From an uncultured Clostridia bacterium (GTDB taxonomy: Bacteria > Bacillota > Clostridia > DSM-8532), in assembly GCA_942493335.1 (NCBI GenBank), contig OW818693.1, forward strand, positions 1,566,644 through 1,590,643: a DNA stretch of 24,000 bases. The letters are read 5' to 3'. The notes beneath the pieces were generated by a model that did no database searches, was not told where the DNA came from, and saw only the letters and a list, made by a program, of their open reading frames with translations. This document shows positions 4,113 to 23,467 of this stretch, one piece after another. The position numbers were made by a program, and so were the translations under genes. How positions within the stretch are numbered: position 1 is the first letter of the stretch; each line of letters opens with the position of its first letter.

Positions 4113-4123
4113 ATGGTTAGCAA

Positions 4124-4846: not shown

Positions 4847-4899
4847 ATGCTACCCCGTCAAAACCCATTGAAGGTATACGTCTATCCATAACAATCTCT

Positions 4900-7917: not shown

Positions 7918-7929
7918 TCGTACTCCTTC

Positions 7930-9180
7930 TCACATCGCCTTTTCAAAGGAAAGCAGTTTGTCTCTGTAGTATTCGTACTGCTGCTGCCGTGCTTCTATTT
8001 CGGCGGGCAGACCCGTCGTCAAATCATTGCAGAGCAAATCAAATTGGTCGAGGATGCGGACTATTTCTTCCTGAATGGGGAGAGGGGGAACGAGAACAGG
8101 TACGCGAGCTATAGAATTACTCATTAACTTTGGGTTGCCCATCCCGGGACTAACATAGTCCTTAACAATTGACTGGAGCCAATAGAACAGAAAACGGGTA
8201 CATAATTCTGTAGGGATAGACACGCTTAAGAGGCCACATACATTTGTAATGCTGAATTTCTCGTTCGAATGGAAGAATACAGACCCTGCATTTGCGCCAT
8301 CAGTCGTCCATGTGATAGATTCAAAGTCATAATCATAATTGTCAATGTATCCGAATATTCCGTTGTTCAATGTCTGCGATGAGTACACTGGATAAACTCC
8401 AGCATTAGCTCGAAGATAGTCTTTTGACATAACGCGCCCACGAGTTATCATACACATCTCGTCAAGATTTTTATACTCCACCCCATCCGGGCATAACTCA
8501 TCAATCAGTTTCCGAATCGTCCCAGTCTTCCTCTGCAGACCTTCTTCCGAAAAATCAAGCATCTTATTTTGATAATACTCATACTGCTGCTTGCGAGCCG
8601 TCCGCTCCGCGTTTAGCTCCGCCTTCAATTCCGTTGTCAACTCCGTGAATGTGTCGAGGATGCGGACAATTTCTTCCTGAATGGAGAGAGGGGGGATGGG
8701 GATTTCAATTGCCTTTATTGCTGGTACACTTGAATGAACGACTTTGCTCTTCACTTTACCAGCACTCTTATGTTTTTGTGCATCTGCTGTCGACAGGACA
8801 TACGAAAGATACTTAGGGTTCTGATTATGCTTCAGTACAACCATGTCGCCGCCAGCCAAACACTTTTCATGGCCAACGTACGCTGTTGACTTAGCGATAT
8901 CCGCCACGTTTTCTCCCGTTATAGCAAATAAAATGTCACCGTGCTCGAAATATTTCGGATTTTGAATGGCGGCTTCTTCAGTGTGTGAAACACACTCATC
9001 AAACCATATCCCATATGTTGTATAAATTTCCCCATACCGGACACAGGAAATCCCATATGGGACTACCTGGTCTCGCGTGATTCCCGAACCCCGATAAACA
9101 TCGGTAGCGATTTCTCCAATAGCTTTTATCTCTACCCCATCGGGGCACAGCTCCGCAATCAGTTCTTCAATCCTGCTCAT
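7930..9180 (-). CDS. hsdS: Type I restriction enzyme specificity subunit, two TRDs
   Basis: Two-fold internal architecture. Each half begins (I/L)xELCPDGVE(I/Y)K and ends with the conserved spacer (L/P)(S/P)IQEEIVRILD...QQYEYY. ATGA overlap with the hsdM stop (9177-9180). Confidence 0.95.
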   Translation of the reverse strand: MSRIEELIAELCPDGVEIKAIGEIATDVYRGSGITRDQVVPYGISCVRYGEIYTTYGIWFDECVSHTEEAAIQNPKYFEHGDILFAITGENVADIAKSTAYVGHEKCLAGGDMVVLKHNQNPKYLSYVLSTADAQKHKSAGKVKSKVVHSSVPAIKAIEIPIPPLSIQEEIVRILDTFTELTTELKAELNAERTARKQQYEYYQNKMLDFSEEGLQRKTGTIRKLIDELCPDGVEYKNLDEMCMITRGRVMSKDYLRANAGVYPVYSSQTLNNGIFGYIDNYDYDFESITWTTDGANAGSVFFHSNEKFSITNVCGLLSVSIPTELCTRFLFYWLQSIVKDYVSPGMGNPKLMSNSIARVPVLVPPLPIQEEIVRILDQFDLLCNDLTTGLPAEIEARQQQYEYYRDKLLSFEKAM

Positions 9181-10745
9181 GCTTCCACCTCGATTTCATC
9201 GATAATTGCCGCAATTTTGTCGCGAAGCTGCTGAGCCCTGGTGACGATTGTTTCAAGCCGTTCGTTCAATTCAGTAATATCAACCACTTCTCGCAAGTCT
9301 TTTTGCTCAACGTATGACGAGACGGATAGATTATAGCCATTCTCGGCAATCTGTTTGTTAGGGACAACCTTTACCATGTGTTCGACATCCTGACGGCCCC
9401 ACACAGCCTTCAGTATGTTTGCAATGTTATCATCTGTCAGCTTGTTGCCGTTGGTTACCTTAACGCATTCTTTAGAAGCGTCAACAAATACCGTCGTACT
9501 GGCCTTTTTGTTCTTCTTTAGGACCAAGATATTTGTGGAGATAGAGGTTCCATAAAACAAGGACCCTGGGAGCTGGATGTTTGCTTCGACATAATTGTTG
9601 TCAATCAGATACTGCCGAATCTTTTGCTCAGCTCCGCCCCGATACATAATTCCAGGAAAACAAACAATGGCCGCGACGCCGTTTTCCGACAGCCATGACA
9701 ACGAATGAAGAATGAACGCAAAATCAGCCTTTGATTTCGGGGCAAGCACTCCGGCGGGGGCAAATCTTGGGTCGTTGATAAGTGTTGGGCTCCCATCCCC
9801 AATCCAACGGACGCTGTAAGGTGGATTCGATACGATAGCTTCAAAGGGTTCTTCGTCCCAGTGGTGTGGCTCAGTCAGGGTGTCTCCATGCTTAATGTCA
9901 AACTTGTCAGGGCCGACATCATGCAGGAACATGTTAATTTTGCACAACTGGCTGGTGACCGACGAAATCTCCTGCCCGTAGAAACCCATTCTGACATTTT
10001 CCTTGCCAAGAATCTTGGCAAACTTCAGCAGAAGTGAGCCACTCCCGCATGCGGGGTCATAAACCTTGTTGACTTCCGTTCTTCCATATAGTGCCAAATG
10101 AGCCAGGAGCATCGATGCTTCAGGCGGCGTGAAATATTCTCCGCCCGATTTCCCTGCATTGGACGCATACATCCCCATAAGGTATTCGTATGCATCTCCA
10201 AACGCGTCAATGGAGCTGCCATGGCCGTATCCAAAATCCATTTCGCCGATGCCATTCATCAACTTGACGAGTGCAGAATTCCTACTCGCAACGGTTGCTC
10301 CGAGTTTGTTGCTGTTGACATCAAGTTCGTTAAACAATCCCTTAAAGTCTTCCTCACTCTCATAACCGCGAGCGGATGCCTCAATGGCGTCGAGAGCCTT
10401 TCCCAGCTTTTCATTGATGTTGGGGTCAGATGAAGCATTCTTACGGACATTGCAAAAGAGCTGGCTGGGAAGAATGAAGAACCCCTTTACTTGGACGAAT
10501 TCTTCGCGAGCCTGCTCTGCATCTTCATCGGAAATTTCAGAATACTTGAACCCAATATTCCCAGCAGCTTCTTCGCCCTTGTTGATATAGTTTTCTTGGT
10601 TCTCGGAAATATACCGATAGAACAACATCCCAAGAACATATTGCTTGAAGTCCCATCCATCCACGCTACCACGTAAATCGTTCGCAATTGCCCAAATCCC
10701 CTTGTACAGTTCGCTTCTTTCAACCTCACGTTTGTTTTCTGCCAT
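9177..10745 (-). CDS. hsdM: Type I restriction enzyme M subunit (N6-adenine DNA methyltransferase)
   Basis: SAM-binding motif I VYDPACGSGSLLL and catalytic motif IV IVSNPPYS. HsdM-type N-terminal helical domain. AAGGAG RBS. Confidence 0.95.
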   Translation of the reverse strand: MAENKREVERSELYKGIWAIANDLRGSVDGWDFKQYVLGMLFYRYISENQENYINKGEEAAGNIGFKYSEISDEDAEQAREEFVQVKGFFILPSQLFCNVRKNASSDPNINEKLGKALDAIEASARGYESEEDFKGLFNELDVNSNKLGATVASRNSALVKLMNGIGEMDFGYGHGSSIDAFGDAYEYLMGMYASNAGKSGGEYFTPPEASMLLAHLALYGRTEVNKVYDPACGSGSLLLKFAKILGKENVRMGFYGQEISSVTSQLCKINMFLHDVGPDKFDIKHGDTLTEPHHWDEEPFEAIVSNPPYSVRWIGDGSPTLINDPRFAPAGVLAPKSKADFAFILHSLSWLSENGVAAIVCFPGIMYRGGAEQKIRQYLIDNNYVEANIQLPGSLFYGTSISTNILVLKKNKKASTTVFVDASKECVKVTNGNKLTDDNIANILKAVWGRQDVEHMVKVVPNKQIAENGYNLSVSSYVEQKDLREVVDITELNERLETIVTRAQQLRDKIAAIIDEIEVEA

Positions 10746-12292: not shown

Positions 12293-12958
12293 CTAATTTG
12301 TAACATTGCTAATATTTGTATCGGTAATTTCCCTATTTAGTTTGCTTTTTATCAAGTATACATACTGCGCAAACAGTTCTCTTGCATATGTTCTTGCGTA
12401 CTTGTCCATAGAATAAATCGATAAAACAATTGCAACAACTAGTGACAAACACACGTTAATTATGACACCTTTTAACACCACGACTACAATCAATATAAGA
12501 ATCAGAGAACTAGCAATCCCACGAGTAAGCCCATAACTCCCATTGAAGAAGTCTACTCTATCATGCAATGAAGCCGCTTTGATTTCGGCATAAATTTCTC
12601 TTGTGAATCCTATCCACGTTCTTTTGTTGACGAAGGGATTCTTCCCCTCCGACATAAAATGACTGTATATTGATTCTCTCCAATGCTCTGAGTAGGTATT
12701 GTTGCTCTCTATCATAATCCAGTCCGTTGGCCATCCTTTGCGGAACTTCCACCACATTTTCTCAAGAATATTCCCAACTGCTTGAACCAGATACCCGCAC
12801 GCATAGCTTATCACAAGCATAATACTAATGGCAGAAAACTGATTTTGGTTACTAAGCAACAGAGTGTTTACTTCCTGTATTACAAGGGATAGTCCAAATA
12901 ATGCCACCGCACCTGGGACAAATATACCCGCAAATTCGTAATAATCGAAGTTCCTCAT
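12293..12958 (-). CDS. Integral membrane protein, about 4 TM, unknown function (221 aa)
   Basis: I prefer ATG 12958 (GAGGTG 6 nt upstream) to the GTG at 12967. Two N-terminal TM segments (FAGIFVPGAVALFGLSLVI, ISIMLVISYACGYLVQAVG), a soluble core of about 90 aa, and two C-terminal TM segments (SSLILILIVVVVL, INVCLSLVVAIVLSIY). Confidence 0.6.
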   Translation of the reverse strand: MRNFDYYEFAGIFVPGAVALFGLSLVIQEVNTLLLSNQNQFSAISIMLVISYACGYLVQAVGNILEKMWWKFRKGWPTDWIMIESNNTYSEHWRESIYSHFMSEGKNPFVNKRTWIGFTREIYAEIKAASLHDRVDFFNGSYGLTRGIASSLILILIVVVVLKGVIINVCLSLVVAIVLSIYSMDKYARTYARELFAQYVYLIKSKLNREITDTNISNVTN

Positions 12959-13118
12959 AACAATCACCTCGTAATAAAGAAAATGCTTCTATACCCCATA
13001 CAGCGAAAGGTAAACTTTTCTTAACGGATATTACTTCGTTTCATATCAACTTCTCTCTGACTATATGAAGTCATTGGCGGCGAAACAACTTAAAATGATT
13101 AACTACCAGCATATATAA

Positions 13119-13447: not shown

Positions 13448-14530
13448 ATGAGCCAAAGAATCACAATCTACCCGCTTGGAAACGCCGAAACCATTTTATT
13501 AGAACTCTCAAACAATAAGAGAATTCTCATAGACTATGCTGCAATGCGCACTGAAGAAGAGGGCGATAAGCGTTATGACATCACCACAACGCTAGTAAAA
13601 TTTAGTTCTTTCGACGTTGTTATGTTTAGTCATGCCCATGAAGACCACGTTAAGGGTGCGAAAGACTTTTTTGAGTTTGACCATGCCGAAAAATACCAGG
13701 GTAATGGGCGTGTGAAAATCAAGGAACTTTGGGTTTCATCTGCGTTTGTGCTTGATTCTAGTGTCAGCGAAGATGCTCGTGTTATTCGCCAAGAAGCACG
13801 CCACCGCATAAAGAAGGGCTATGGGATAAAAGTGTTCGCTGAGCCCGATAAACTCGACCAATGGCTTATTGATAATGACCTGTCAACTGACGATAGTGAA
13901 AACTCCATAATCCACGCAGGAACATTACTAAAAAATAAAGACCACTGCCTTGGAGATGAGCTTGATGTATTTGTCCATGCACCGTTCTCAGAGGACGCCA
14001 ATGAGAGTGAAGATAGAAATGACCCATCAATTGTTTTGCAGCTTAGGTTAGCAAATTTTTCGCGGACTACAACCATCTTCGTTACAGGCGATGCTCCACA
14101 TGAAATTCTTGATAAAATAGTCGAGCGTTCTGAAAAGGCCGGTAATGATAGCTATCTATACTGGGATTTATATGACATACCACACCATTGCAGTCATACC
14201 GGGCTATCAGACGAACGTGGAGAGAAAGTAACAGATACTTCTGAAAATATCAAACGCCTATTATCCAATTATTCTAGAAAGAACGCCGTCATGATAGCTT
14301 CATGTCGGGCGTTTTGTGATGTAGGTGACGACGACCCTCTACCGCCTCATTTTCAAGCAAAAGATGCTTATATAAAATATAGTGGCGAGAAGGAGTTCAT
14401 CGCGACAATGGAATACCCTAATAAAGTCAATCCTCAACCGCTGGTTTACGAAATCGATATGTTTGGAATAACCAAGAAAGTAGTCACGGCAAGCCCCATT
14501 ATAACTTCGCCAGCACCGAGGGCAGGATAA
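13448..14530 (+). CDS. Metallo-beta-lactamase-fold hydrolase (360 aa) with a Pro/Ser-rich C-terminal tail ending in Gly
   Basis: N-terminal ITIYPLGNAETILLEL..RILIDYA strand pattern. H62-A-H-E-D-H67 (HxHxDH zinc motif). No signal peptide. C-terminus ...KKVVTASPIITSPAPRAG*. GAGGGGGG RBS 8 nt upstream. The stop overlaps the next start (TAATG). Confidence 0.85.
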   Translation: MSQRITIYPLGNAETILLELSNNKRILIDYAAMRTEEEGDKRYDITTTLVKFSSFDVVMFSHAHEDHVKGAKDFFEFDHAEKYQGNGRVKIKELWVSSAFVLDSSVSEDARVIRQEARHRIKKGYGIKVFAEPDKLDQWLIDNDLSTDDSENSIIHAGTLLKNKDHCLGDELDVFVHAPFSEDANESEDRNDPSIVLQLRLANFSRTTTIFVTGDAPHEILDKIVERSEKAGNDSYLYWDLYDIPHHCSHTGLSDERGEKVTDTSENIKRLLSNYSRKNAVMIASCRAFCDVGDDDPLPPHFQAKDAYIKYSGEKEFIATMEYPNKVNPQPLVYEIDMFGITKKVVTASPIITSPAPRAG

Positions 14531-16791
14531 TGGAAACTGATATCACCACTCCAATGTGCGAGATAACAAGGCAAATCCTTGTTGTTTTGTGTAGCGGTGG
14601 CCCATATCAGGCTACCCTGCAATGCATTGAGAATGTGAGACATGATAATACCTTAACAGACATGCTCAAAATCGAATACAATATCGCAGGATTGTGTCAG
14701 TATCCAAAATATGAAATCCGCCGAGTCGAGCCAATTACTATTTGGGTACAAGATGGACAGTTGCCGATAGTCGAAGCAAGAGAAGATTTCCCGATAGTGC
14801 CTCATCTTGTTGTCAATCGTGATGGCATGAAGACGCTCTGTTATACCGATTTCTCATATTCTGAGATAAAGCACAGACTGAACGGACAATTTATTGTGGA
14901 GTGCATCAACGAGTGGTTTGTAAGAACCGCTCGTGATGAACTTCACCGAGATGACCAGCCTCTTGAACCTTTCTTTTTCGGGGTCCAAGACATGATTGTC
15001 GTAAAGAAGCAGTTTTTTCATAATTATTGTGCAAAATTCAAAGAAATTCAACAAAACAATCGTCTGACATTACAGCAAGTCCCCGACGGTGTCAACGGGA
15101 CAGGGGTATACCTTTACGTTGTTATTAGGTTGAATATCCCACCTAGTAAAGATAACATTATCCATCATCCTCCGAAGTCATTAGGAGATTTATTTGCTCT
15201 TTTTTCATCGAAGCACATCGAACAGCAGCTTATGACCGAATTGTGGGAAATTCTCAAAATAAGGCTTAATAAGAAAAATTTTCAATCTACATTCGTCAAT
15301 ATGTCTTTTCTGTTTTGTTTACCCTGCATCATCTTTTTGCATATCCCACAAAGAAGAAAAAAAACAAGTATTATCGAAACATCAGATAATCGTGTGTTTA
15401 TAACCAACGGTCACAGATTCGGCGATATTCTCAATGATTTTGGTATCCATCGACAGATAATTGTTGGCGAAAAAAAAAGTCAAGAATATAAGTTAACCAG
15501 TACCGGCAAAAATTATCACGGCGAAAACATCAGCATCAGTCAACTCAATCTTCACTTTGAAACAACGCCTCCACTTGCCAGAATATATAGCGGAATCAAT
15601 GAAGGCTATCAACATAAATATTTCGTACTCATCGGTGCAGGAGCCTTAGGCTCTCAGGTGTATGTTAATTGTTTACGCTCAGGTTTTGGGAAATGGGCAA
15701 TTATTGATTTCGATGTTTTTTTGCCCCACAACCTTACTCGGCATGTTCTTTCACAATCTTCAGTTGGACAACCGAAGGCAACAGAGCTAGTGCAATATGC
15801 TAATTCTGTCATTGAGAATCCTGAAGTATGCGCTTATGTAGCTGACGTTCTTGACCATCATAGCGCCGACATTCTTATGACCTTAGCAACAGCCGATGTG
15901 ATAGTAGACGTTTCCACATCGGTCGCGGTGGAACGAATGCTTGCCATAGACACGAAAACAAAAGCACGATGTATTTCGCTCTTCTTAAATCCACGAGGCG
16001 ATTGTCTTGTTATGCTTTGTGAAGACTCGGAGCGAACCATTACACTCGACCAATTGGAGATGCAGTTGAACGCAATACTGATTAACGAGACTGATTTGGA
16101 GAATTTCTATTGTTTGCCAACAACTATAGCATACGCTACATCTTGTCGCGACATAACTACTACTATTCCGCAAGAAAACATTGCATTAACTGGCGCCGTC
16201 GCAAGCAAAGAGTTGAAATTAGCTCAAGAAAACATGTCATCAAATATCGTTGTCTGGAAAATAAGCAACGATGGAATTGCAGCACAAAGATATGCTGGCG
16301 AACGATGGCATGAAATATCTTGTGGTGATTGGCGAGTGTTGATGCGCTACTCCTTGCTGCATTCTCTCCAAGAAAAGAGAATCGAACGTCAACCGAATGA
16401 AACCGGCGGTGTTCTTATTGGTAATTATGACTTTTCACGTAAGATAATTTATGTCGTCGACATGATTTTTTCACCAAGTGACAGTATTGAGGTCCCTTCC
16501 TCATATATCCGAGGCTGCAAAAACTTACCTGAGCAGATAAATCAAATATCAAAAAGAACATTTAACGGTCTTTTCTATATCGGGGAATGGCATAGCCACC
16601 CCAGCCAGAGCACTGCGATGAGCTGTGCTGATGAAAAGCTTCTCCGCACAATTAGCGATGTTTGTAAAGCCAACTGTCTACTCGGTGCTATGATTATTTG
16701 CGGGAGTAATAGCAATTTATCTTTTTATCTTCGTGATGATACTATGGTTTTTTCTGAGACGTTCATATTCGACAATACTGGACAACGATAA
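14530..16791 (+). CDS. E2(UBC)-like / E1 (ThiF-MoeB) / JAB triple-domain protein, 753 aa
   Basis: E2-like: DFPIVPHLVVNRDGMKTLCYTD, a His-x11-Cys pattern like HPN...G.iCl of UBC folds, with candidate Cys104 (nt 14839-14841). E1: YFVLIGAGALGSQVYVNCLRSGFGKWAIIDFDVFLPHNLTRH (GxGxxG plus D.D...NL.R). Candidate E1 Cys539 (ATSCRD). JAB: E624 (NETGGVLIG) and H688-S-H690-x7-S698-x2-D701 (EWHSHPSQSTAMSCAD), the canonical JAMM spacing. Confidence 0.9.
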   Translation: METDITTPMCEITRQILVVLCSGGPYQATLQCIENVRHDNTLTDMLKIEYNIAGLCQYPKYEIRRVEPITIWVQDGQLPIVEAREDFPIVPHLVVNRDGMKTLCYTDFSYSEIKHRLNGQFIVECINEWFVRTARDELHRDDQPLEPFFFGVQDMIVVKKQFFHNYCAKFKEIQQNNRLTLQQVPDGVNGTGVYLYVVIRLNIPPSKDNIIHHPPKSLGDLFALFSSKHIEQQLMTELWEILKIRLNKKNFQSTFVNMSFLFCLPCIIFLHIPQRRKKTSIIETSDNRVFITNGHRFGDILNDFGIHRQIIVGEKKSQEYKLTSTGKNYHGENISISQLNLHFETTPPLARIYSGINEGYQHKYFVLIGAGALGSQVYVNCLRSGFGKWAIIDFDVFLPHNLTRHVLSQSSVGQPKATELVQYANSVIENPEVCAYVADVLDHHSADILMTLATADVIVDVSTSVAVERMLAIDTKTKARCISLFLNPRGDCLVMLCEDSERTITLDQLEMQLNAILINETDLENFYCLPTTIAYATSCRDITTTIPQENIALTGAVASKELKLAQENMSSNIVVWKISNDGIAAQRYAGERWHEISCGDWRVLMRYSLLHSLQEKRIERQPNETGGVLIGNYDFSRKIIYVVDMIFSPSDSIEVPSSYIRGCKNLPEQINQISKRTFNGLFYIGEWHSHPSQSTAMSCADEKLLRTISDVCKANCLLGAMIICGSNSNLSFYLRDDTMVFSETFIFDNTGQR

Positions 16792-17251: not shown

Positions 17252-17361
17252 AAGGCCGTCGTATTACGCTGTTGGCTATAAACTTACACGCCCTGTTTGC
17301 AACTGTTGCAATGATTCGTTCTTTATACATGACCCACCTCGCCAGAACGTAGTGCTTCTCG

Positions 17362-17669
17362 ACACCAAGCATAGCGGAGTATAGTCAAATCTCGCACGAA
17401 CGGCACACTCCCTTGTTCAACCTTCCAAAACCACCATGCTCCTTCATGTCTCCCTCATCGCACATTTCTCCACATTTTTCGCATTCATACCACCTGACCC
17501 AAAACGAATCAAACTGCATGTCACTAGATGACGCATCAAAGTGTTGGCGCATCTCAGCCTTTGCCTGTTCATGCTCAAAATCATCGTTATGATGTCCTAT
17601 GCCACCACATCGCGTCATTTGAGGCTCTCGCTGAGCATATTGTCGACGAATAGCTTGAAATGTCTCTGT
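17362..17669. repeat. Direct repeat copy A (3' two-thirds of the zinc-ribbon gene plus about 20 nt of downstream flank)
   Basis: Alignable by eye with 22962-23268 in the same orientation. Roughly three quarters of positions are identical, for example gagtatagtcaaatctc, caaccttccaaaa, caccatgctccttcatgtct, gctgagcatattgtcgacgaat. Confidence 0.7.
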
Positions 17670-17867
17670 AGCCTTCTTGGAATCGAGCTTCTCCTGTTCA
17701 TCATCTTCAGCACTCAAGATTGCGTCATTGTCAAGCCGGTCTATTACCGTCGATGCGAGTCGTTCTTGCTCACGGGCTTCACGTTCTTTTGACTCGTGAA
17801 GCCTCTGCTCAAGTTCTTTATTCAGCCGGTCTCTTTCCCGCTTATCTCGTTCTGCTTTTTCTACCAA
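17385..17867 (-). CDS. Coiled-coil plus C-terminal zinc-ribbon protein (paralog A), 160 aa
   Basis: The charged N-terminus (ERDKRERDRLNKELEQRLHESKEREAREQERL) is predicted coiled-coil. C-terminus WYECEKCGEMCDEGDMKEHGGFGRLNKGVCRSCEI (CxxC...CxxC). TTG start. The reading frame stays open upstream without a start, and a 55-codon ORF with a good SD (ATG 18025, ends 17861) is in another frame, so the 5' end is possibly frameshifted. Confidence 0.6.
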   Translation of the reverse strand: MVEKAERDKRERDRLNKELEQRLHESKEREAREQERLASTVIDRLDNDAILSAEDDEQEKLDSKKATETFQAIRRQYAQREPQMTRCGGIGHHNDDFEHEQAKAEMRQHFDASSSDMQFDSFWVRWYECEKCGEMCDEGDMKEHGGFGRLNKGVCRSCEI

Positions 17868-18258: not shown

Positions 18259-18299
18259 TAATATTGGCAATGAAATCAGTTGTGTTGCAGGAGGTTTGT

Positions 18300-18908
18300 A
18301 TGAATCAAAAGAATCCGCTGTTCTCGTATCGAACTGCTTGTCCTGATAACATTCCGGTGACAGAACAAGAGGTAGCCAGACACTACGACAGCAGAACCGG
18401 TCTTTGGTATGAGGCGGGTGGTGTTCCCGTTATTGAGAAATTCGTGAACTCACGTGTGAGAGATAAGAGGGCTGAAACCCACACAACAGACTCCCGTGAG
18501 GGTATCGACAGAGGCGAAACATCCTCGCCTCCGCCTCGTTATCTGAACGATACTCGAAGAACACAAGCTGGACCAGACGAAACCCTTATAACCGAAACCA
18601 GAGAAAGCATTGACCGAAGTGAAGGTTCTGTTCACTACGAAGACTTTGTGGCTCTAAAAGGACCTGATGAAACGCTGATTACAAAGACAAGGGAAGGTAT
18701 CGACACAAGTGAATCCTCTTCCTTTGTCCCATTTGTTGCAGAAGAATACAAAATCAAGGCATCCGGCTCTGCTGAAACGCTTATAACGCGTTCGAGAGAA
18801 GGTATTGACACAACCGAAAGAAGCAACGAAATACATGACTATATGTTTCAAACCATCCAAACATTCACGCGTGAATCGACCGACAGAAACGAGGAACAAT
18901 CGGAATGA
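18300..18908 (+). CDS. Multi-core graspetide-type precursor protein (202 aa) with five repeats of a T/S- and E/D-rich motif
   Basis: I prefer ATG 18300 (AGGAGG 7 nt upstream) to the TTG at 18204. Repeats: AETHTTDSREGIDRGE, DETLITETRESIDRSE, DETLITKTREGIDTSE, AETLITRSREGIDTTE, QTIQTFTRESTDRNEE. ATGA overlap with the ATP-grasp gene start. Confidence 0.75.
   Translation: MNQKNPLFSYRTACPDNIPVTEQEVARHYDSRTGLWYEAGGVPVIEKFVNSRVRDKRAETHTTDSREGIDRGETSSPPPRYLNDTRRTQAGPDETLITETRESIDRSEGSVHYEDFVALKGPDETLITKTREGIDTSESSSFVPFVAEEYKIKASGSAETLITRSREGIDTTERSNEIHDYMFQTIQTFTRESTDRNEEQSE
18471..18896 (+). repeat. In-frame coding repeats (5 units; 18471-18518, 18576-18623, 18666-18713, 18771-18818, 18849-18896)
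   Basis: Consensus (D/A)ET(L/H)(I/T)Tx(T/S)RE(G/S)IDx(S/T/G)E. The three central units share GAAAC(C/G)CT(T/G)AT(A/T)AC at the DNA level. Spacing is 30-35 codons. Confidence 0.8.
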
Positions 18909-19849
18909 TAACGTGTCCGAAGGTTCTCTTCGTAACAAATCGGGAGGATTTCGCCATCGACTTCCTCCTATATCGGTTCAAAGACAAAGGGATACCCTAT
19001 CTACGTATCAACTCTGAGGATATCACGGAATGTGATATAACCTGGGAATACGGTAAAGAAGTAACCTTTTCATATAGCGGAGACTCTTATGATTTAGAGG
19101 CTGTCAAATCGGTATACTTTCGTCGCGCTCCTTCTATCTTTCCACAAGGGGTTGACCCGACGGACACTCCTTTTCTTAGGGGTGAAAGACGTGATTTCTT
19201 CGAAGGGTTGTATATGACCCTTGAAGCTAGATGGGTGAATCCTCTTTTCAGCACCTACATAGCCGAAAAGAAACTATATCAGCTCAACGTAGCACGGCAA
19301 GTTGGCTTTACCATCCCAAAATCGATAGTCACAAATAGACCACAAGACATCCTCAGCTTTCTTTCGAACGGCCCCAGTATCATGAAACCTATCTCGCATG
19401 GTCTTCAGGTGAAGGTTGGCGAAGCTTACTCAATCTATACATCGGTTATCCAAGCAGCCGATTTCAAGGACCTTGAGAACACCTTTGAAGCACCCGTTCT
19501 GGTACAAACAAGAATTCCAAACACTTGTGATATAAGGGCTACAGTCGTTGGCAACAAGGTATTCGCTGTCGAGATACACCAAGAAGGCGAACCAAATGTT
19601 GATTGGAGAGTGCTCGAAGCAACCAAGCGTTATGTTCTTCACGAATTACCGCCTGATATCATATCCATGATGCTTAACCTGCATAAATCATTAGGGCTTG
19701 TCTACTCAGCCTTCGATTTCATCCTAACACCAGACGGAGAGTATGTGTTCCTTGAAACGAATCCTGCTGGAGAATGGGTTTGGATAGAAAGAGAGACAGG
19801 TCTGCCTATAGCAGAAGCCTTGTGCTCGGAGTTGATTGATGAAAAATAA
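18905..19849 (+). CDS. ATP-grasp peptide macrocyclase (MdnC/MvdD-like, RiPP maturase family), 314 aa
   Basis: VLFVTNREDFAIDFLLYRFKDKGIPYLRINSED (N-terminal precursor-binding domain pattern). DIRATVVGNKVFAVEI...VDWR. GLVYSAFDFILTPDGEYVFLETNPAGEWVWIERETGLPIAEALCSELI closely matches the FLE.NP.GqW.W.E..TG.pI signature of microviridin-type ligases. Confidence 0.9.
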   Translation: MITCPKVLFVTNREDFAIDFLLYRFKDKGIPYLRINSEDITECDITWEYGKEVTFSYSGDSYDLEAVKSVYFRRAPSIFPQGVDPTDTPFLRGERRDFFEGLYMTLEARWVNPLFSTYIAEKKLYQLNVARQVGFTIPKSIVTNRPQDILSFLSNGPSIMKPISHGLQVKVGEAYSIYTSVIQAADFKDLENTFEAPVLVQTRIPNTCDIRATVVGNKVFAVEIHQEGEPNVDWRVLEATKRYVLHELPPDIISMMLNLHKSLGLVYSAFDFILTPDGEYVFLETNPAGEWVWIERETGLPIAEALCSELIDEK

Positions 19850-20861
19850 GCAAAAAACTGTAGATTTGGGTTCCACACAAACTGAGGTGCAACCAAAAAT
19901 CGCTATGGCTGAGAAAAAGCCAATGGTAGCAGCAACAGAACAGAAAGACCCGGTTTGGCAAGACGAGTATCTATCGCCGAACATAGAAAGTAAACCACTA
20001 ACGGTCAAACTAATTTGGAAAAGTATAAAAGACTTTTTCATATTTCTTCTTCATGCAATATCCCCACATGCATATCCAACGCCACCAAAACTAGCTCTCC
20101 CCGATATAACATCAGATGATGAGCATTTAGCCTTCGATATGTGTAAGTCGCTGTATGAAGCATCACATTCAAGAATCGATAATCTTGAAGATAAATCGAT
20201 GAAGTTGCTCCCTTATATCACAGCCCTCTTTGCCTTCTATTCATTTGCTTATCTAAACATAGCGAATATCCCCACAAAGGTATCTTTGTTGACAGCAATG
20301 CTTTTTTTGCTTCTATCTATCATCATTTCCTTTCGTTGTGTTAGCGTAAAAGGGCGTAGAGCCATATTCATCCCTACCATATACGATATGGACGAAAAAC
20401 CACCAAAAGAGCTTTTTAAGAGAAACACAATATCAAAGGGTTACCTGAAATCTGCAATCATAAACCAGTCCGTGGCTGATAACACCGCTGATATCCTACG
20501 CGCTGCAAGAAGCACCTTAACACTCGCTCTGATTATTGGTTTAGTCGGTTGTATGGTTGGTGTTATAGGATTGTTTGGTGCAGAAAAAACTAGTCAGGAC
20601 GTAAAAATCCTTCAACAAAATGAGACAACCATATTGGTGAAAAGCGTTCAAGATGAGGCAATAGCCATACGAGGGTTAACCGAAAGAATAACAAGCAAGT
20701 ATGAGATACAACAGGACAGCGAGAATGGCAAGCTCGAGCGAAAGAACCAGGAGTTGTCAGATGCCCTAGATACCACGACCAAGAAGGTCGATAAACTAGA
20801 AAGTGAACTCAAAAACCTCTTGGAAAAACTCAACACAGAACCTGTTCCAGCAACAAAGTAA
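19839..20861 (+). CDS. Multi-TM membrane protein with C-terminal coiled coil (340 aa)
   Basis: ATG 19839 overlaps the ATP-grasp 3' end by 11 nt, with GGAG about 9 nt upstream. TM segments LLPYITALFAFYSFAYLNI, VSLLTAMLFLLLSIIISF, LTLALIIGLVGCMVGVIGLFG. The segment before TM1 (SHSRIDNLEDKSMKLL) is reminiscent of DUF5706/SLATT-type TM effector N-termini (weak). C-terminal heptad-like ELSDALDTTTKKVDKLESELKNLLEKL. Confidence 0.75.
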   Translation: MKNKQKTVDLGSTQTEVQPKIAMAEKKPMVAATEQKDPVWQDEYLSPNIESKPLTVKLIWKSIKDFFIFLLHAISPHAYPTPPKLALPDITSDDEHLAFDMCKSLYEASHSRIDNLEDKSMKLLPYITALFAFYSFAYLNIANIPTKVSLLTAMLFLLLSIIISFRCVSVKGRRAIFIPTIYDMDEKPPKELFKRNTISKGYLKSAIINQSVADNTADILRAARSTLTLALIIGLVGCMVGVIGLFGAEKTSQDVKILQQNETTILVKSVQDEAIAIRGLTERITSKYEIQQDSENGKLERKNQELSDALDTTTKKVDKLESELKNLLEKLNTEPVPATK

Positions 20862-20886
20862 GGGTATGCGGCGAAGCCGCACACCC
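20862..20886 (+). terminator. GC-rich hairpin immediately after the operon stop codon
   Basis: gggtatgcggc-gaa-gccgcacaccc. 11-bp stem with one mismatch and a 3-nt loop. The trailing T-tract is poor. Confidence 0.5.
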
Positions 20887-21398
20887 TCAATTGCATATTC
20901 TTGCTGTCCTCCTGTTCACCAACCAGATACATCAAATCTGTATCTTAAGAAGAATGTTTCTGTCGCTGAGTTGAAAGCCATATCTGCTAAAGCATTTGGG
21001 TTTATCTCGAAGTCCCAATCCTGCTTGCCTATTATGATGTATACGTATATATCTATCGTACCAGTTAAGAAATATCTTCTGTGGTCAAGCCTCATCCAAG
21101 CAGAAAAGCGTGCATTACTCATCTATTGTTCAGACTCAATGGCCATATCGTCTACCAACACCCATTTATAGCCATCACTTGTCTACCTCATATGATATAC
21201 TGCTCCATAGAGTAATGTAATAAAATCTCAGAATTTGTATATGATGACTAGATATTGATATACAATCAGAGACGTTTCGGAAGCTATTCGAGGACAAGAA
21301 GTTCTACGAAGCCGTCATGGGAGCTGTTGGGAGAGATGTGTATAAGTATTTGATGTCATAGTAACAAAGAGGCTCACTAATTATAGGAGGAGGCAGAA

Positions 21399-22367
21399 AT
21401 GAGAAAAGCACTTTGCGTCGGAATTGACAATTATGAAACAATCAACGACCTGCATGGATGTGTAAATGATGCGAACGGAGTAAAGGCTGTGCTTGACCGG
21501 AACGGTGATAGCACATTGAATTTTCAGACCCGCTTGATGTGTTCGACAAGTGAGAACTCGTATATAAGAAGAGGCGATTTGAAGGACGCAATTGAAGAGT
21601 TATTCAGAAGTGAATCTGAGATAGCGATTCTGTATTATGCAGGGCATGGCTCATATGATGAAAATGGCGGCTATTTATGCACTAGCGAAGTGAGTCGTTC
21701 TGATGACGGTTTATCTCTTGACGATATTATGGGAATAGTGTCACGGTCAAAAGCTCAAAACAAAGTGATTATACTCGATAGTTGCCATAGTGGGCTTGTG
21801 GGAACATCAAATTTGATGCCAAATTATTCTGTATTGCATAACGGAACGACTATTCTGGCCGCATGTGATGAAAAGCAATACGCATCGGAGGCAATGGGGC
21901 ATGGTGTATTTACGACTTTGCTTATAGAAGCGCTTTATGGCGGCGCAATGAATCTTTTAGGCGAGGTGTCACCTGGTAGCATATACTCATACATTGACCG
22001 CTCACTTGGTGGCTGGGAGCAACGTCCAGTGTTTAAGGCAAACATCAAATCCTTTGTGTCCCTAAGAAAAAATTCTCCTCCCATTCCAATAGAAGAATTA
22101 CGGCGCATAAAGGAATTTTTTCCCTCCCCATATGAGGAGTTCTCACTTGACCCCACATACGAGCCGGACAAACACGAGGCTGATATGCAGGATGTAAACA
22201 AAGAACACGAAGCCGTATTCGCAATACTGCAAAAGTATGTTAAGCTGAATTTGGTTGTGCCTGAAGGCGCAGAGCATATGTACTATGCCGCATTAAACCA
22301 CAAGTCTTGCAAATTAACTTCACAAGGTCAGCATTATTGGAATCTTGTTACAAAAGAAACAATATGA
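21399..22367 (+). CDS. Caspase-like (peptidase C14) protease with an uncharacterised C-terminal domain, 322 aa
   Basis: KALCVGIDNYETINDLHGCVNDANGV..., ILYYAGHGS (catalytic His) and VIILDSCHSG (catalytic Cys) form the caspase/metacaspase His-Cys dyad. Residues from about 200 to 322 have no motif I recognise. AGGAGGAGG RBS. Confidence 0.9.
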   Translation: MRKALCVGIDNYETINDLHGCVNDANGVKAVLDRNGDSTLNFQTRLMCSTSENSYIRRGDLKDAIEELFRSESEIAILYYAGHGSYDENGGYLCTSEVSRSDDGLSLDDIMGIVSRSKAQNKVIILDSCHSGLVGTSNLMPNYSVLHNGTTILAACDEKQYASEAMGHGVFTTLLIEALYGGAMNLLGEVSPGSIYSYIDRSLGGWEQRPVFKANIKSFVSLRKNSPPIPIEELRRIKEFFPSPYEEFSLDPTYEPDKHEADMQDVNKEHEAVFAILQKYVKLNLVVPEGAEHMYYAALNHKSCKLTSQGQHYWNLVTKETI

Positions 22368-22424
22368 AATCACCGACTCACCAAGAGGCAAAGGGACAAA
22401 TCAACGAAAGGAATGGTATAGACA

Positions 22425-22811
22425 ATGGTGAAGAAGAACGTATTCATTAGTCATCGCTGGGATTATGAAGAAGACTACGAAAAAATTAGTGCTGTGCTAG
22501 ACCGGACAAAATACGACGTGTCAAATCGCTCGGTTGAGAGTTCGGACCCTCTAGTTGGCACAAAAAAAGAAGTTACAGTCGCTATAAAGGCGAAGATTGA
22601 CAGTGCAAGTGTTGTGCTTGCACCCGCTCGTCCAGCAGCGGTCACATCTGGAAGCATGGGGCGTAAGGAAATTGATTATGCCGTAAGCAAAAAAAAGAAA
22701 ATCATAGCTGTCGATACTGGGACCACGCAATCCGTAGCTAGCTATTGGAAAGAAAACGACATCCCTGTAGTCACATGCCGTAAAGACAGTGTCGAGAATG
22801 CAATAGGATAG
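22425..22811 (+). CDS. TIR-like domain protein (DUF1863 / ThsB-like), 128 aa
   Basis: KNVFISHRWDYEEDYEKI start typical of TIR-like/DUF1863. IDSASVVLAP...SGSMGRKEIDYAVSKKKKIIAV matches the i..s..vivl...S.w...Ei..a...gkpiigv pattern. Lies 57 nt downstream of the caspase-like gene. Weak SD. Confidence 0.6.
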   Translation: MVKKNVFISHRWDYEEDYEKISAVLDRTKYDVSNRSVESSDPLVGTKKEVTVAIKAKIDSASVVLAPARPAAVTSGSMGRKEIDYAVSKKKKIIAVDTGTTQSVASYWKENDIPVVTCRKDSVENAIG

Positions 22812-22842
22812 TATTCTATAATGTCCGCAAAGGCATAATTTA

Positions 22843-22882
22843 GCCCTTAATAGAGCTTGATTACAAGCAAGCTCTATTGAGG
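22843..22882. terminator. Long hairpin between convergent genes (likely bidirectional terminator)
   Basis: cccttaatagagcttg (22843-22858) and caagctctattgaggg (22867-22882) form a 16-bp stem with one mismatch and an 8-nt loop. The T-tract is weak. Confidence 0.55.
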
Positions 22883-22961
22883 GTTAAATTCGTTGCCGCA
22901 GTCACCCATGACATTCAAGAAGAAAGTATATACATGCCATTCCAGGCATGAAGATTTTCAG

Positions 22962-23268
22962 CACCAAAGATAGCAGAGTATAGTCAAATCTCACACGACC
23001 GGCATACCCCCCGATTCAACCTTCCAAAATCACCATGCTCCTTCATGTCTTCCTCGTCGCACAGCGCTCCACACTTTTCGCACTCAAACCATCTGACCCC
23101 AAATGAGTCATACTGTTTCTCAACAGATGAGACGTCAAAGTATTGTCGCATCTCTGTCTTTGCGATTTCATGTTCGACATTATCGTCATGGCGTCCTTTG
23201 ACAATTCGTCGTATGATTTGTGATTCACGCTGAGCATATTGTCGACGAATGGCACGAAATGTCTCAGT
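22962..23268. repeat. Direct repeat copy B (see 17362-17669)
   Basis: Same orientation as copy A. Homology ends at the codons for (T)ETF(Q/R)AIRRQ at the upstream side, and about 20 nt past the stop codon at the downstream side. Confidence 0.7.
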
Positions 23269-23274
23269 TTCCAT
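22984..23274 (-). CDS. Zinc-ribbon protein (paralog B), about 96 aa from ATG 23274
   Basis: METETFRAIRRQYAQRESQ...WFECEKCGALCDEEDMKEHGDFGRLNRGVCRSCEI is collinear with residues 67-160 of the 17385..17867 product. The longer ORF-track start (23367) adds non-protein-like sequence. Confidence 0.6.
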   Translation of the reverse strand: METETFRAIRRQYAQRESQIIRRIVKGRHDDNVEHEIAKTEMRQYFDVSSVEKQYDSFGVRWFECEKCGALCDEEDMKEHGDFGRLNRGVCRSCEI

Positions 23275-23467
23275 CGTGAGAAAAATGGGGGCGCTTCTTT
23301 TTCGTCCTGATAACAGCGAGCATGTCGTTACCGCAGAAAGCGCATGAACAATTGCATCTACGACCATACTCTTCGGGTTTTAGGTCAGCGATATAGACGA
23401 TTTTCCCATTCCTTTTCGCAAAAGGATTTTTAAGGTCACCCATATCCCGATTCTCCATATAGCGCAA
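23264..23467 (-). CDS. Short Cys-rich ORF resembling only the N-terminal zinc finger/HFxH segment of CoiA-like proteins (probable truncated remnant)
   Basis: GKIVYIADLKPEEYGRRCNCSCAFCGNDMLAVIRTKKKRPHFSHDGN* resembles C.C..C...l......pHFaH. It stops right at the repeat boundary and no nuclease domain follows. TTG/ATG start ambiguous, weak SD. Confidence 0.35.
   Translation of the reverse strand: MRYMENRDMGDLKNPFAKRNGKIVYIADLKPEEYGRRCNCSCAFCGNDMLAVIRTKKKRPHFSHDGN

What the first reader, a model, noticed from the sequence alone, without database searches (positions are those of the whole stretch)
18300..18908. 202-aa precursor with five tandem core motifs ETLITxTREGIDxSE: a multi-core graspetide substrate with a motif I cannot assign to a named group
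Each repeat presents hydroxyl donors (T/S at three fixed positions) and carboxylate acceptors (E, D, E at fixed spacing: T-x-x-T-x-T-R-E-x-I-D-x-S-E). That is the chemical logic of omega-ester cross-links installed by ATP-grasp macrocyclases. The gene ends in an ATGA overlap with such an enzyme. Multi-core precursors are known, plesiocin-type being an example, but I do not recognise this core motif. At about 200 aa, with 30-35-residue spacers, the protein is large for a RiPP precursor. The N-terminal 57 residues or so (MNQKNPLFSYRTA...GLWYEAGGVPVIEKF) would be the leader. NPLFSYR faintly recalls the PFFARFL leader box of microviridins.
Basis: partly seen in the sequence, partly recalled or inferred. 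Interest (0 to 1): 0.8.

Follow-up and report, generated by a model that had tools for sequence, protein, structure and literature searches.

The report
Five-core graspetide precursor, defence-island cassette
This 202-residue protein is very probably the substrate of the neighbouring ATP-grasp enzyme, which would staple each of its five repeats into small rings; the peptide class and this motif were already catalogued by computer, and the less expected point is that the three-gene unit always travels on transposons and in anti-phage defence islands.

Summary
ORF 18300-18908 encodes 202 aa with five copies of [T/S]xx[T/S]x[T/S]RExxDxxE, and its stop overlaps the start of an ATP-grasp gene (ATGA). 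The graspetide reading is well supported. The enzyme's best matches are ribosomal-peptide maturases (TIGR04187 1e-63; MdnB 8.5e-42). In 29 homologous precursors (117 repeats) the one donor position my search pattern left free is always Thr/Ser. All related loci that reach far enough upstream carry the ATP-grasp gene. The leader has the published Phhxh box, and the core is predicted to be disordered.

The motif is not unassignable. Makarova et al. 2022 list the same core (clusters 2737 and 6621) with enzymes in their thuringinin branch. The family is homologous to precursors labelled Lee group 4, whose member OEP-4-1 has been made in E. coli. This is therefore a new, unusually long member of a known kind. 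No member with this exact core has been characterised, as far as I could find.

Two points go beyond the finding. A third gene, encoding a 3-TM protein with a coiled coil, is always present. No protease or ABC exporter lies inside the cassette. The cassette sits next to defence genes (here AbiEi, type I R-M, 6A-MBL, caspase, TIR) or is the first cargo of Tn7-like transposons. An anti-phage or conflict role is possible but untested.

The parts
18289..18294 (+). Shine-Dalgarno AGGAGG, 5 nt upstream of the precursor ATG
   Evidence: Read directly from the sequence.
18300..18908 (+). Precursor gene: 202 aa, made of a leader and five cores
   Evidence: Translation. 29 homologues with E from 1.8e-37 to 1e-7. 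Alignments.
18300..18464 (+). Leader, residues 1-55. It contains MNQKNPLFSYR (the Phhxh box), a nearly invariant Cys14, YDxxxGLW and GxPxIxKF.
   Evidence: Invariant or nearly invariant columns Q3, L7, C14, Y29, D30, G34, L35, W36, I45. AF2 predicts helix 6-10, hairpin 28-37 and helix 44-54, with pLDDT 81-88 for residues 31-50.
18474..18518 (+). Core repeat 1: ETHTTDSREGIDRGE
18579..18623 (+). Core repeat 2: ETLITETRESIDRSE
18669..18713 (+). Core repeat 3: ETLITKTREGIDTSE
18774..18818 (+). Core repeat 4: ETLITRSREGIDTTE
18849..18893 (+). Core repeat 5: QTIQTFTRESTDRNE
18905..19849 (+). ATP-grasp graspetide synthetase, 314 aa. Its start overlaps the precursor stop (ATGA).
   Evidence: TIGR04187 1e-63, MvdC 1.7e-54, MvdD 5.2e-44, all below the curated cut-offs. 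PF08443 and PF21068. PDB relatives: MdnB 5ig8 8.5e-42, AMdnB, MdnC, CdnC, PsnB. 54% identical to the Lutispora partner enzyme.
19839..20861 (+). Third cassette gene. From ATG 19839 it encodes 340 aa and overlaps the ATP-grasp stop by 11 nt. The conserved part begins at W40, so ATG 19906 or 19924 are possible starts. It is a helical membrane protein with 3 predicted TM helices and a C-terminal coiled coil. Function unknown.
   Evidence: 40% identity, E 3e-76, to the gene in the same position in Lutispora. Present in every related locus. 28 invariant residues, including ISFRCV.VK.R and N...ADN.AD. AF2 pLDDT 72, all-helical. No PDB fold match. No Pfam, NCBIfam or PADLOC family above threshold.
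20859..20889 (.). GC-rich 14-bp-stem hairpin starting at the stop codon of gene 3. It is the likely 3' end of the operon, although there is no clear U-tract on the + strand.

Best explanation
Genes 18300-20861 form a three-gene graspetide (omega-ester peptide) cassette of the thuringinin branch, close to Lee group 4.

Proposed mechanism, step by step:
1. The 202-aa product is a precursor.
2. Its ~55-residue leader (PLFSY box plus the YDxxxGLW...GxPxIxKF hairpin and helix) docks on the ATP-grasp enzyme.
3. The enzyme uses ATP to phosphorylate the side-chain carboxylates of E, D and E in each of the five disordered core repeats: T-x-x-T-x-T-R-E-x-x-D-x-x-E.
4. The Thr/Ser hydroxyls attack the acyl phosphates and form omega-ester rings.
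5. Each repeat would receive two or three rings. That is 10 to 15 losses of 18 Da per molecule.
6. The result is a pentavalent string of small cyclic knots.

Ring pattern. The symmetric spacing (T4/E17 and T7/D14 around the central T9-R10-E11-G12) suggests nested hairpin-like rings, but the connectivity is not known.

Likely activity. The invariant Arg at the centre of every repeat is a plausible P1 residue, so the product is most likely a multivalent inhibitor of trypsin-like serine proteases.

Third gene. The membrane protein is part of the unit. It may act in export or immunity, or as an effector.

Shown here: gene arrangement, homology, conservation, co-occurrence and core disorder. Inferred: the chemistry, by family analogy; the ring pattern; the protease target; the role of gene 3.
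For: Enzyme.
- Its best family and structure matches are all ribosomal-peptide ATP-grasp maturases.
- It is 55% identical to the Brevibacillus thermoruber PM1 enzyme (GCA_000744635.1). Makarova et al. list that enzyme in 'Branch_Thuringinin', next to the Psychrobacillus and group-4 Idiomarinaceae enzymes.

Substrate.
- There is translational coupling through the ATGA overlap.
- 29 homologous precursors carry 3-5 repeats each. In 117 repeats, T4 is T/S in 117/117 and R10 is R in 116/117; neither was forced by my search pattern. T7, T9, E11, D14 and E17 were part of the pattern. They are invariant or nearly so in the shared repeat columns of the alignments.
- Relatives carry one or two cores on 63-99-aa precursors with the same motif.
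- The precursor is homologous to published graspetide precursors: cluster 6621 at E 2e-17 and the group-4-labelled cluster 2946 at hhalign 97.8%.
- The leader carries the Phhxh motif described in PMC8939145.
- AF2 gives a confident leader and a disordered core, pLDDT below 40 for residues 56-202.

Co-occurrence.
- Precursor, ATP-grasp and third gene lie in the same order in all 14 loci fetched through the precursor and in the 4 fetched through the enzyme.
- The same holds in every metagenome locus that reaches far enough upstream.

Literature.
- The acyl-phosphate mechanism, and protease inhibition by microviridins and plesiocin with potency rising with the number of cyclised motifs, are in PMC13097080.
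Against: - No chemistry was or could be tested. Ring number and connectivity are guesses.
- A T9-E11 ester would be a very small ring.
- The NCBIfam scores are below every curated cut-off (215 bits against 350 for TIGR04187), so the enzyme is a divergent member.
- No leader protease or ABC/PCAT exporter lies inside the cassette. A 15-20 kDa product with 11-21-residue spacers is atypical of a secreted RiPP.
- The protease-inhibitor role rests only on analogy and on the invariant Arg.
- The genomic context (defence islands, Tn7 cargo) hints at a role that the classical 'secreted natural product' picture does not explain.
Confidence: 0.8

Rival explanations
1. The chemistry is the same, but the biology differs. 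The cassette would be a mobile-element-borne conflict module, either anti-phage defence or exclusion of competitors, rather than a secreted natural-product pathway. The cross-linked, protease-resistant repeat protein would act inside the cell or at the membrane. It could block a phage maturation protease or another incoming protease, or it could gate the third protein. The third protein would be the membrane effector.
For: - The window is a dense defence island: AbiEi 3468-4112, type I R-M 4900-10745, the 6A-MBL system 13448-16791, and a caspase plus a ThsB-like TIR at 21399-22811.
- Other loci show the same kind of neighbourhood. CBASS cyclase plus 2TM effector lie directly upstream in L011 and L013. 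NsnA/GmrSD, Eco57I and PIN_8 are in L010. PDC-S31 and DUF4238 are in L001-L007. SRA-HNH and a DUF4011 helicase are in L017. An integrase and RmuC are in L018.
- The cassette is the first cargo after tnsD/tnsE in three diverged Tn7-like lineages.
- It lacks a protease or exporter.
- Weak PycTM (Pycsar effector) hits occur on some third-gene homologues.
- The Mitchell-lab co-occurrence table links group 3 and group 4 clusters with conjugation, integrase and resolvase genes.
Against: - None of the three proteins matches any PADLOC 2.0 model.
- No NCBIfam 2026 model matches the precursor or the third protein, and the enzyme matches only peptide-maturase and other ATP-grasp ligase models, none of them anti-phage.
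- A full-text search found no paper that links graspetide cassettes with phage defence.
- Bacteriocin and RiPP loci also ride mobile elements, so the association is not specific.
- L012 sits among T9SS, M23 and Tse3-like genes rather than defence genes.
- PycTM similarity is below threshold and was not reproduced by hmmscan on four homologues. There is no relation to SLATT_4 2TM effectors.
- Neighbour annotation was done by hand on about ten independent contexts. It is not a statistical enrichment test.
Confidence: 0.25
2. The ATP-grasp enzyme does modify the repeat protein, but not by macrocyclisation. It could instead add amino acids to the carboxylates, as RimK does in poly-glutamylation, or ligate the repeats to another molecule.
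For: PF08443 (RimK) is the top Pfam hit at 1e-05. Weak RimK-family NCBIfam hits are also present.
Against: - Peptide-maturase models score far better: 1e-63 against 3.8e-09.
- The MvdD pre-ATP-grasp domain is present.
- All PDB relatives are graspetide macrocyclases.
- The strictly conserved Thr/Ser donors at fixed spacing from the acids have no role in tailing chemistry.
Confidence: 0.04
3. The 202-aa ORF is an ordinary acidic repeat protein, for example a metal-binding or structural protein, whose adjacency to the ATP-grasp gene is incidental.
For: The precursor matches no protein family. It is large for a RiPP precursor.
Against: - Gene order and overlapping or abutting reading frames are invariant in every related locus, across Firmicutes and Bacteroidota.
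- The leader shows graspetide hallmarks, and the protein is homologous to catalogued precursors.
- The core is disordered.
Confidence: 0.02

Closest known systems
Makarova et al. 2022 precursor clusters 2737 and 6621 (Psychrobacillus sp. FJAT-21963, KQL33358-KQL33360), with the enzyme in 'Branch_Thuringinin'. These are computational predictions only.
   Same: - Same leader (MNQKS.LL.Y(K/R)..C ... YD...GLW ... P.I.KF).
- Same core, T(L/I)xTxTREG(I/V)D(R/Q)SE.
- BLASTP E 2e-17 to cluster 6621.
- Brevibacillus and Peribacillus loci of the same type also carry the third gene.
   Different: Those precursors are 71-99 aa, with one or two cores, and occur as several genes per locus. The window has one 202-aa gene with five cores and longer spacers. 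The ATP-grasp enzyme is only 55-56% identical to those of the Brevibacillus and Peribacillus loci of this type; I did not have the Psychrobacillus enzyme sequence.
Lee et al. 2020 group 4 omega-ester peptides. OEP-4-1 from Sphingobacteriales bacterium 44-61 was produced in E. coli. Group-4-labelled precursors are known from Idiomarinaceae HL-53 and Xanthomonas NCPPB1131.
   Same: - Tandem cores of the form (G)ETxxTxTxEGxDxSE.
- The YD...LW leader element.
- hhalign 97.8%, E 1e-12.
- Enzymes in the same tree branch.
- Association with resolvase and integrase genes.
   Different: - The group-4-labelled sequences have G or S where this family has an invariant Arg (T-G-E-G or T-S-E-G against T-R-E-G/S).
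- Makarova's table does not give the Psychrobacillus TRE-type precursors a group-4 label.
- I could not obtain the published group-4 motif, the OEP-4-1 sequence or its ring connectivity. Membership is therefore probable but not shown.
Thuringinin (group 3, Bacillus thuringiensis) and plesiocin (group 2, Plesiocystis pacifica)
   Same: - Multivalent graspetides with tandem core repeats on one precursor.
- A single ATP-grasp enzyme.
- Two ester links per repeat (PMC12291112).
- Plesiocin is a protease inhibitor whose potency rises with the number of repeats (PMC13097080).
- Thuringinin loci have a specific uncharacterised membrane protein, 'cluster 18' (PMC8939145).
   Different: - The core motifs and spacing differ.
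- PsnB matches only at E 9e-9.
- They have three or four repeats, against five here.
- I could not test whether the third gene here is the 'cluster 18' family.
Microviridins (group 1)
   Same: - ATP-grasp macrolactonisation guided by a leader helix.
- MdnB and MdnC are the closest solved structures.
- In microviridin J an esterified Thr is followed by Arg, the P1 residue for trypsin. This last point is from my own knowledge and was not checked here.
   Different: - There is no Lys donor and no amide bond.
- There is no TxKYPSD core and no PFFARFL box.
- There is one ligase instead of two, and no acetyltransferase.
- The precursor is multi-core.

Membership tests
Graspetide (omega-ester-containing peptide) biosynthetic locus | An ATP-grasp ligase of the MvdC/MvdD/TIGR04187 peptide-maturase type | tested here: met
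   TIGR04187 1e-63, MvdC 1.7e-54, MvdD 5.2e-44, and the MvdD pre-ATP-grasp domain. All PDB relatives are graspetide synthetases. The scores are below NCBIfam's equivalog and subfamily cut-offs.
Graspetide (omega-ester-containing peptide) biosynthetic locus | A precursor gene next to the ligase in the same direction, and always co-occurring with it | tested here: met
   ATGA overlap. The order is the same in all related loci.
Graspetide (omega-ester-containing peptide) biosynthetic locus | A core with conserved Thr/Ser/Lys donors and Asp/Glu acceptors at fixed spacing | tested here: met
   117 repeats. T4 is T/S in 117/117 and was not forced by the search pattern. The other five positions (T7, T9, E11, D14, E17) were in the pattern and are invariant or nearly so in the shared repeat columns of the alignments.
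Graspetide (omega-ester-containing peptide) biosynthetic locus | A leader with the conserved 'Phhx(1,2)h' recognition motif (PMC8939145) | tested here: met
   P6-L-F-S-Y10. P6 and L8 are at least 90% conserved and L7 is invariant. AF2 predicts a helix at 6-10.
Graspetide (omega-ester-containing peptide) biosynthetic locus | Side-chain ester or amide cross-links are actually installed | not testable with these tools
   This needs co-expression and mass spectrometry.
Thuringinin branch / Lee group 4 | The enzyme falls in the thuringinin branch of the ATP-grasp tree | tested here: met
   Indirect. The enzyme is 55% identical (E 3e-107) to the B. thermoruber PM1 enzyme, which Makarova's Table S1 lists in Branch_Thuringinin beside the Psychrobacillus and Idiomarinaceae enzymes. 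I built no tree.
Thuringinin branch / Lee group 4 | Exact match to the published group-4 core motif | tested here: inconclusive
   The motif text was not obtainable. Profile homology to a group-4-labelled precursor is 97.8%. The TRE-type Psychrobacillus precursors carry no group label in Makarova's table.
Thuringinin branch / Lee group 4 | The locus-specific uncharacterised membrane protein ('cluster 18' of PMC8939145) | tested here: inconclusive
   A conserved membrane protein is present. No cluster 18 sequence was available for comparison.
Microviridin (group 1) | TxKYPSDx(E/D)(D/E) core, PFFARFL leader, and the MvdC plus MvdD ligase pair | tested here: not met
   There is no such core or leader. 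There is a single ligase, which scores below the MvdC and MvdD cut-offs.
Known anti-phage defence system | Any component matches a model of a known or candidate defence system | tested here: not met
   PADLOC 2.0 gave no hit for any of the three proteins. NCBIfam 2026 gave nothing for the precursor or the third protein, and only peptide-maturase and other ATP-grasp ligase models for the enzyme.
Known anti-phage defence system | The locus resides among defence genes or in mobile-element cargo regions | tested here: met
   The window carries AbiEi, type I R-M, 6A-MBL, caspase and TIR. Other loci carry CBASS, NsnA/GmrSD, PDC-S31, SRA-HNH, or are Tn7 cargo. This is qualitative, not a statistical enrichment.
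Known anti-phage defence system | The system protects cells against phage | not testable with these tools
   This needs plaque assays.
PycTM (Pycsar transmembrane effector, PF18967), for gene 3 | A match to PF18967 at or above the gathering score | tested here: not met
   There are only precomputed or weak hits on some homologues and 16.8 bits against a cut-off of 27.2 on a distant relative. Nothing appears for the window protein or four homologues at E <= 1.

The most novel reading that the evidence does not exclude
The precursor, ATP-grasp and membrane-protein trio would be a previously unrecognised mobile anti-phage (or anti-competitor) system. An enzyme-stapled, protease-resistant multivalent peptide would work inside the producing cell. 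It could act as an inhibitor or decoy for a phage protease, or as a regulator of the PycTM-like membrane protein. It would not be an exported natural product. This would give graspetides of the thuringinin branch a physiological role and would add RiPP-type chemistry to the list of intracellular defence mechanisms.
Probability: 0.2. Interest if true: 0.8.

Novelty: new member of a known kind. Interest (0 to 1): 0.42.

Why it matters
As a graspetide, this is a clean and testable candidate. It has five cores and up to 15 esters on one 202-aa chain, with an invariant Arg that predicts specificity for trypsin-like proteases. It belongs to a sub-family (TRE[G/S]xDxxE) for which I found no experimental characterisation. 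It would extend the small set of multivalent graspetides: plesiocin, thuringinin and corallotide.

The wider point is ecological. The natural role of thuringinin-branch graspetides is unknown. This family is carried as a compact three-gene unit, with no protease or exporter gene inside the cassette. It sits next to CBASS, R-M, 6A-MBL and TIR genes, and it is the first cargo of Tn7-like transposons that have moved between Clostridia genera. That makes the question 'what are these peptides for?' directly testable with phage-challenge and protease-target experiments.

Tried and rejected
- Published motif definitions. I tried to retrieve the group motifs of Lee 2020 (JACS), Ramesh 2021 and the 2021 RiPP review. 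None is held. A full-text search for the motif strings returned only noise. A search for OEP4 gave no sequence or connectivity.
- Mitchell-lab 2026 supplement. It does not contain the motif strings in the text that is held. It did give the co-occurrence table and the OEP-4 source organism.
- Organism of the window. The exact-protein look-up found no record and the cluster look-up gave no names. The genome-contig scan did not return the window's own genome.
- Plasmids and phages. There is no close relative of the enzyme: the best hits are 36% on plasmids and 34% on phages. No relative of the precursor or of gene 3 occurs in 2.9 million viral contigs. The cassette is therefore not phage-borne.
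- Caspase and TIR genes as part of the cassette. Rejected. They are separated from it by 538 bp and a hairpin, and they are absent from all other loci.
- AF2 on the precursor, to see whether the repeats form hairpins. The core came out disordered, which is uninformative about ring topology.
Full report
**1. The observation**

- AGGAGG lies 5 nt upstream of its ATG.
- Its stop overlaps the ATG of a 314-aa ORF (18905..19849) as ATGA.
- The pattern [TS]xx[TS]x[TS]RExxDxxE occurs five times, starting at residues 60, 95, 125, 160 and 185. Only 3 of 20,000 shuffles of the protein gave a single match.
- Identical residues in different repeats frequently use different codons. The repeats are therefore maintained at the protein level.
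- One detail in the finding is wrong. The 30-35 residues is the repeat period, and the spacers are 11-21 residues.

**2. The neighbouring enzyme**

The 314-aa protein matches ribosomal-peptide ATP-grasp maturases. The scores are TIGR04187 1e-63, MvdC 1.7e-54, MvdD 5.2e-44 and grasp-with-spasm 4.8e-26. RimK-type ligases score only about 1e-9.
- It carries the MvdD pre-ATP-grasp domain.
- Its only solved relatives are the graspetide synthetases MdnB, AMdnB, MdnC, CdnC, 9bou and PsnB.
- All scores are below the curated cut-offs, so it is a divergent member of the family.

**3. The family**

A search of 5.8 billion proteins found 29 homologues of the precursor, 124-206 aa long, in Lutispora, Thermoanaerobacterium, Clostridium tepidiprofundi and metagenomes. 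Each has 3-5 repeats. Across 117 repeats:
- The consensus is x-(G/F/D)-(E/Q/K)-T-(L/I)-(I)-T-x-T-R-E-(G/S)-(I/V)-D-R-S-E.
- The first Thr/Ser (117/117) and the Arg (116/117) were not imposed by my search pattern.
- The other two donors and the three acids were imposed by the pattern. They are invariant or nearly so in the repeat columns shared by all sequences of the alignments.

The leader is conserved: MNQKSPLLxYRIxC...YDxxSGLWxDxxGxPxIxKY. AF2, run with the alignment, models leader residues 28-54 confidently as a hairpin plus a helix. It leaves residues 56-202 disordered, with pLDDT below 40. That is what a leader-plus-core substrate should look like. Relatives in Brevibacillus, Peribacillus and a Bacteroidota contig carry the same core once or twice on 63-99-aa precursors.

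**4. Co-occurrence**

The cassette passes this test.
- All 14 loci fetched through the precursor have the genes in the same order and closely packed: precursor, ATP-grasp, third gene.
- All 4 loci fetched through the enzyme show the same arrangement.
- Every metagenome locus fetched through the third gene that extends upstream shows it too.

**5. The third gene**

ORF 19839..20861 is 40% identical (E 3e-76) to the gene in the same position in Lutispora.
- The family has 28 invariant residues, including HxxSxH, ISFRCVxVKxR and NxxxADNxAD.
- AF2 gives an all-helical protein (pLDDT 72). I read its long hydrophobic stretches as three membrane-spanning helices, followed by a long C-terminal coiled coil.
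- It has no PDB fold match. It matches no Pfam, NCBIfam or PADLOC family above threshold.
- Weak PycTM (Pycsar effector) hits on some homologues could not be confirmed. There is no relation to SLATT_4 effectors.
- A profile search of 1.84 billion representatives found 200 relatives. The one distant relative whose locus I checked stands alone, with no ATP-grasp neighbour.
- A GC-rich hairpin sits at the stop codon.
- No protease or ABC exporter lies within the cassette.

**6. Comparison with what is known**

The motif is not new to the literature.
- The supplement of Makarova et al. 2022 (PMC8939145) lists clusters 2737 and 6621 from Psychrobacillus sp. FJAT-21963. They have the same leader and the cores TLVTETREGIDRSE, TLITKTREGIDQSE, TIETRTREGVDRSE and VVTYTRESIDRSE. 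The enzyme is placed in 'Branch_Thuringinin'.
- The window protein aligns with cluster 6621 at E 2e-17.
- In the same table the neighbouring Idiomarinaceae and Xanthomonas precursors (GETLITETGEGTDQSE, GETITTRTSEGIDQSE) are labelled Lee group 4. The family profile matches the Idiomarinaceae protein at 97.8% probability.
- The window enzyme is 55% identical to the Brevibacillus thermoruber PM1 enzyme, which is listed in that branch.
- Group 4 has a characterised member, OEP-4-1 from Sphingobacteriales bacterium 44-61, made in E. coli.
- I could not obtain the group-4 motif or its ring connectivity. Membership of group 4 is therefore probable but not shown.
- The invariant Arg distinguishes this sub-family from the group-4-labelled sequences, which have G or S at that position.
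- PLFSY fits the general 'Phhx(1,2)h' leader motif that Makarova et al. equate with the microviridin PFFARFL box.
- Makarova et al. also mention an uncharacterised membrane protein specific to thuringinin loci and guess that it acts in transport.

**7. Mechanism**

By family analogy (PMC13097080), the leader docks on the enzyme and ATP phosphorylates the Glu/Asp carboxylates. The Thr hydroxyls then attack and form omega-esters.
- Three donors and three acceptors per repeat allow two or three rings. That gives 10 to 15 dehydrations per molecule.
- The symmetric spacing T4/E17 and T7/D14 around T9-R10-E11-G12 suggests nested hairpin rings. This is my inference only.
- Characterised graspetides are protease inhibitors, and plesiocin gains potency with repeat number (bioRxiv 10.64898/2026.08.04.741601).
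- The invariant central Arg is a plausible P1 residue for trypsin-like enzymes. This is an analogy with microviridin J, recalled from my own knowledge.

**8. Context: the part that was not in the finding**

The window is a defence island. It carries:
- AbiEi at 3468-4112;
- a type I R-M system at 4900-10745;
- the 6A-MBL system at 13448-16791;
- the cassette itself;
- a caspase-like protease and a ThsB-like TIR protein at 21399-22811.

Two paralogous zinc-ribbon genes, sharing a 300-nt 79% direct repeat, bracket the block from the cassette to the TIR gene.

Elsewhere the cassette has these settings:
- It is the first cargo after tnsD in a Tn7-like element shared by Lutispora, Geosporobacter, Caloramator and digester metagenomes. 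The Tns proteins are 88-96% identical.
- It holds the same position in two more diverged Tn7-like lineages.
- It lies beside CBASS cyclase plus 2TM effector pairs.
- It lies beside NsnA/GmrSD, Eco57I and PIN_8, PDC-S31, and SRA-HNH plus a DUF4011 helicase.
- It lies beside integrases.
- One Bacteroidota contig instead shows T9SS, M23 and Tse3-like neighbours.

The cassette is absent from phage, plasmid and viral-contig collections. The Mitchell-lab co-occurrence table independently links group 3 with conjugation and integrase genes, and group 4 with resolvase and integrase genes. No paper in the library connects graspetide cassettes with phage defence, and no defence-system model matches any of the three proteins. 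I therefore keep a conflict or defence role as a rival and novel reading at about 0.2-0.25. It is not the main conclusion.

**9. Verdict**

The claim that the motif cannot be assigned is not supported. This is a new, long (five-core) member of a catalogued but uncharacterised sub-family in the thuringinin/group-4 branch.

Interest is moderate. The chemistry is expected. The compact three-gene unit, and its consistent residence in defence islands and Tn7 cargo, is the point worth following up.

Noticed in passing
window 13448-16791: A complete two-gene 6A-MBL anti-phage system. It consists of an MBL-fold protein (NF058524, 5.9e-97) and a Cap2/Cap3-like E2-E1-JAB fusion (NF058523, 3.8e-155). Both score above the curated cut-offs.
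   Followed up: no
window 3468-10745: An AbiEi-like gene at 3468-4112 (PADLOC 1.7e-37), next to an unannotated 240-aa ORF at 4124-4846 that may be its partner. A type I restriction-modification operon follows: hsdR 4900-7917, hsdS 7930-9180 and hsdM 9177-10745.
   Followed up: partly
window 21399-22811: A caspase-like Peptidase_C14 protein (1.1e-17; EACC1-associated type at 2.4e-27, below the cut-off), followed by a 128-aa ThsB-like TIR protein. They are separated from the cassette by 538 bp and are not conserved with it in other loci. An inverted repeat at 22837-22890 follows the TIR gene.
   Followed up: partly
window 17356-17655 and 22955-23254: A 300-nt direct repeat of 79% identity. It lies within two paralogous minus-strand genes (17385..17867 and 22984..23367), which are 71% identical over 94 aa. 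Both have a C-terminal CxxC...CxxC zinc ribbon and a weak DUF7128 match. Together they bracket the graspetide cassette plus the caspase and TIR genes. This could mark a recombination or insertion module.
   Followed up: partly
window 12293-12967: A minus-strand 224-aa ORF with a weak match to Csx27, a membrane protein associated with type VI-B CRISPR systems (PADLOC 1.1e-05). No CRISPR genes are nearby.
   Followed up: no
L001-L007 (e.g. L006 3303-15248): One Tn7-like element (TnsA, B, C, D) with nearly the same cargo: the graspetide cassette, a 163-aa gene, DUF4238/SEC-C, a 116-aa gene and PDC-S31. It is shared by Lutispora thermophila, Geosporobacter subterraneus, Caloramator quimbayensis and several digester metagenomes. 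The Tns proteins are 88-96% identical, which implies recent transfer between genera.
   Followed up: partly
L001 10347-10838; L016 11908-12423: A 163-171-aa gene with no family match directly follows the third gene in the Tn7-borne copies. The two lineages are 50% identical here. It may be a fourth member of the cassette there. It is absent from the window.
   Followed up: no
window 18339-18341 (Cys14 of the precursor): A nearly invariant cysteine in the leader (MNQKSPLLxYRIxC) across the family. I have no explanation for it. Graspetide leaders are not known to me to need a Cys.
   Followed up: no
L015 6001-6924: A distant relative of the third gene (profile E 2.7e-20) stands alone among metabolic genes, with no ATP-grasp gene nearby. 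The membrane-protein superfamily is therefore wider than graspetide loci.
   Followed up: partly
H27 (Leptospira phage LE1, KF114876.1, 59117-60064) and H26 (MT835913.1, 8836-9768): Two phage records encode distant graspetide-type ATP-grasp proteins, 32-34% identical to the window enzyme. Their neighbours were not examined.
   Followed up: no
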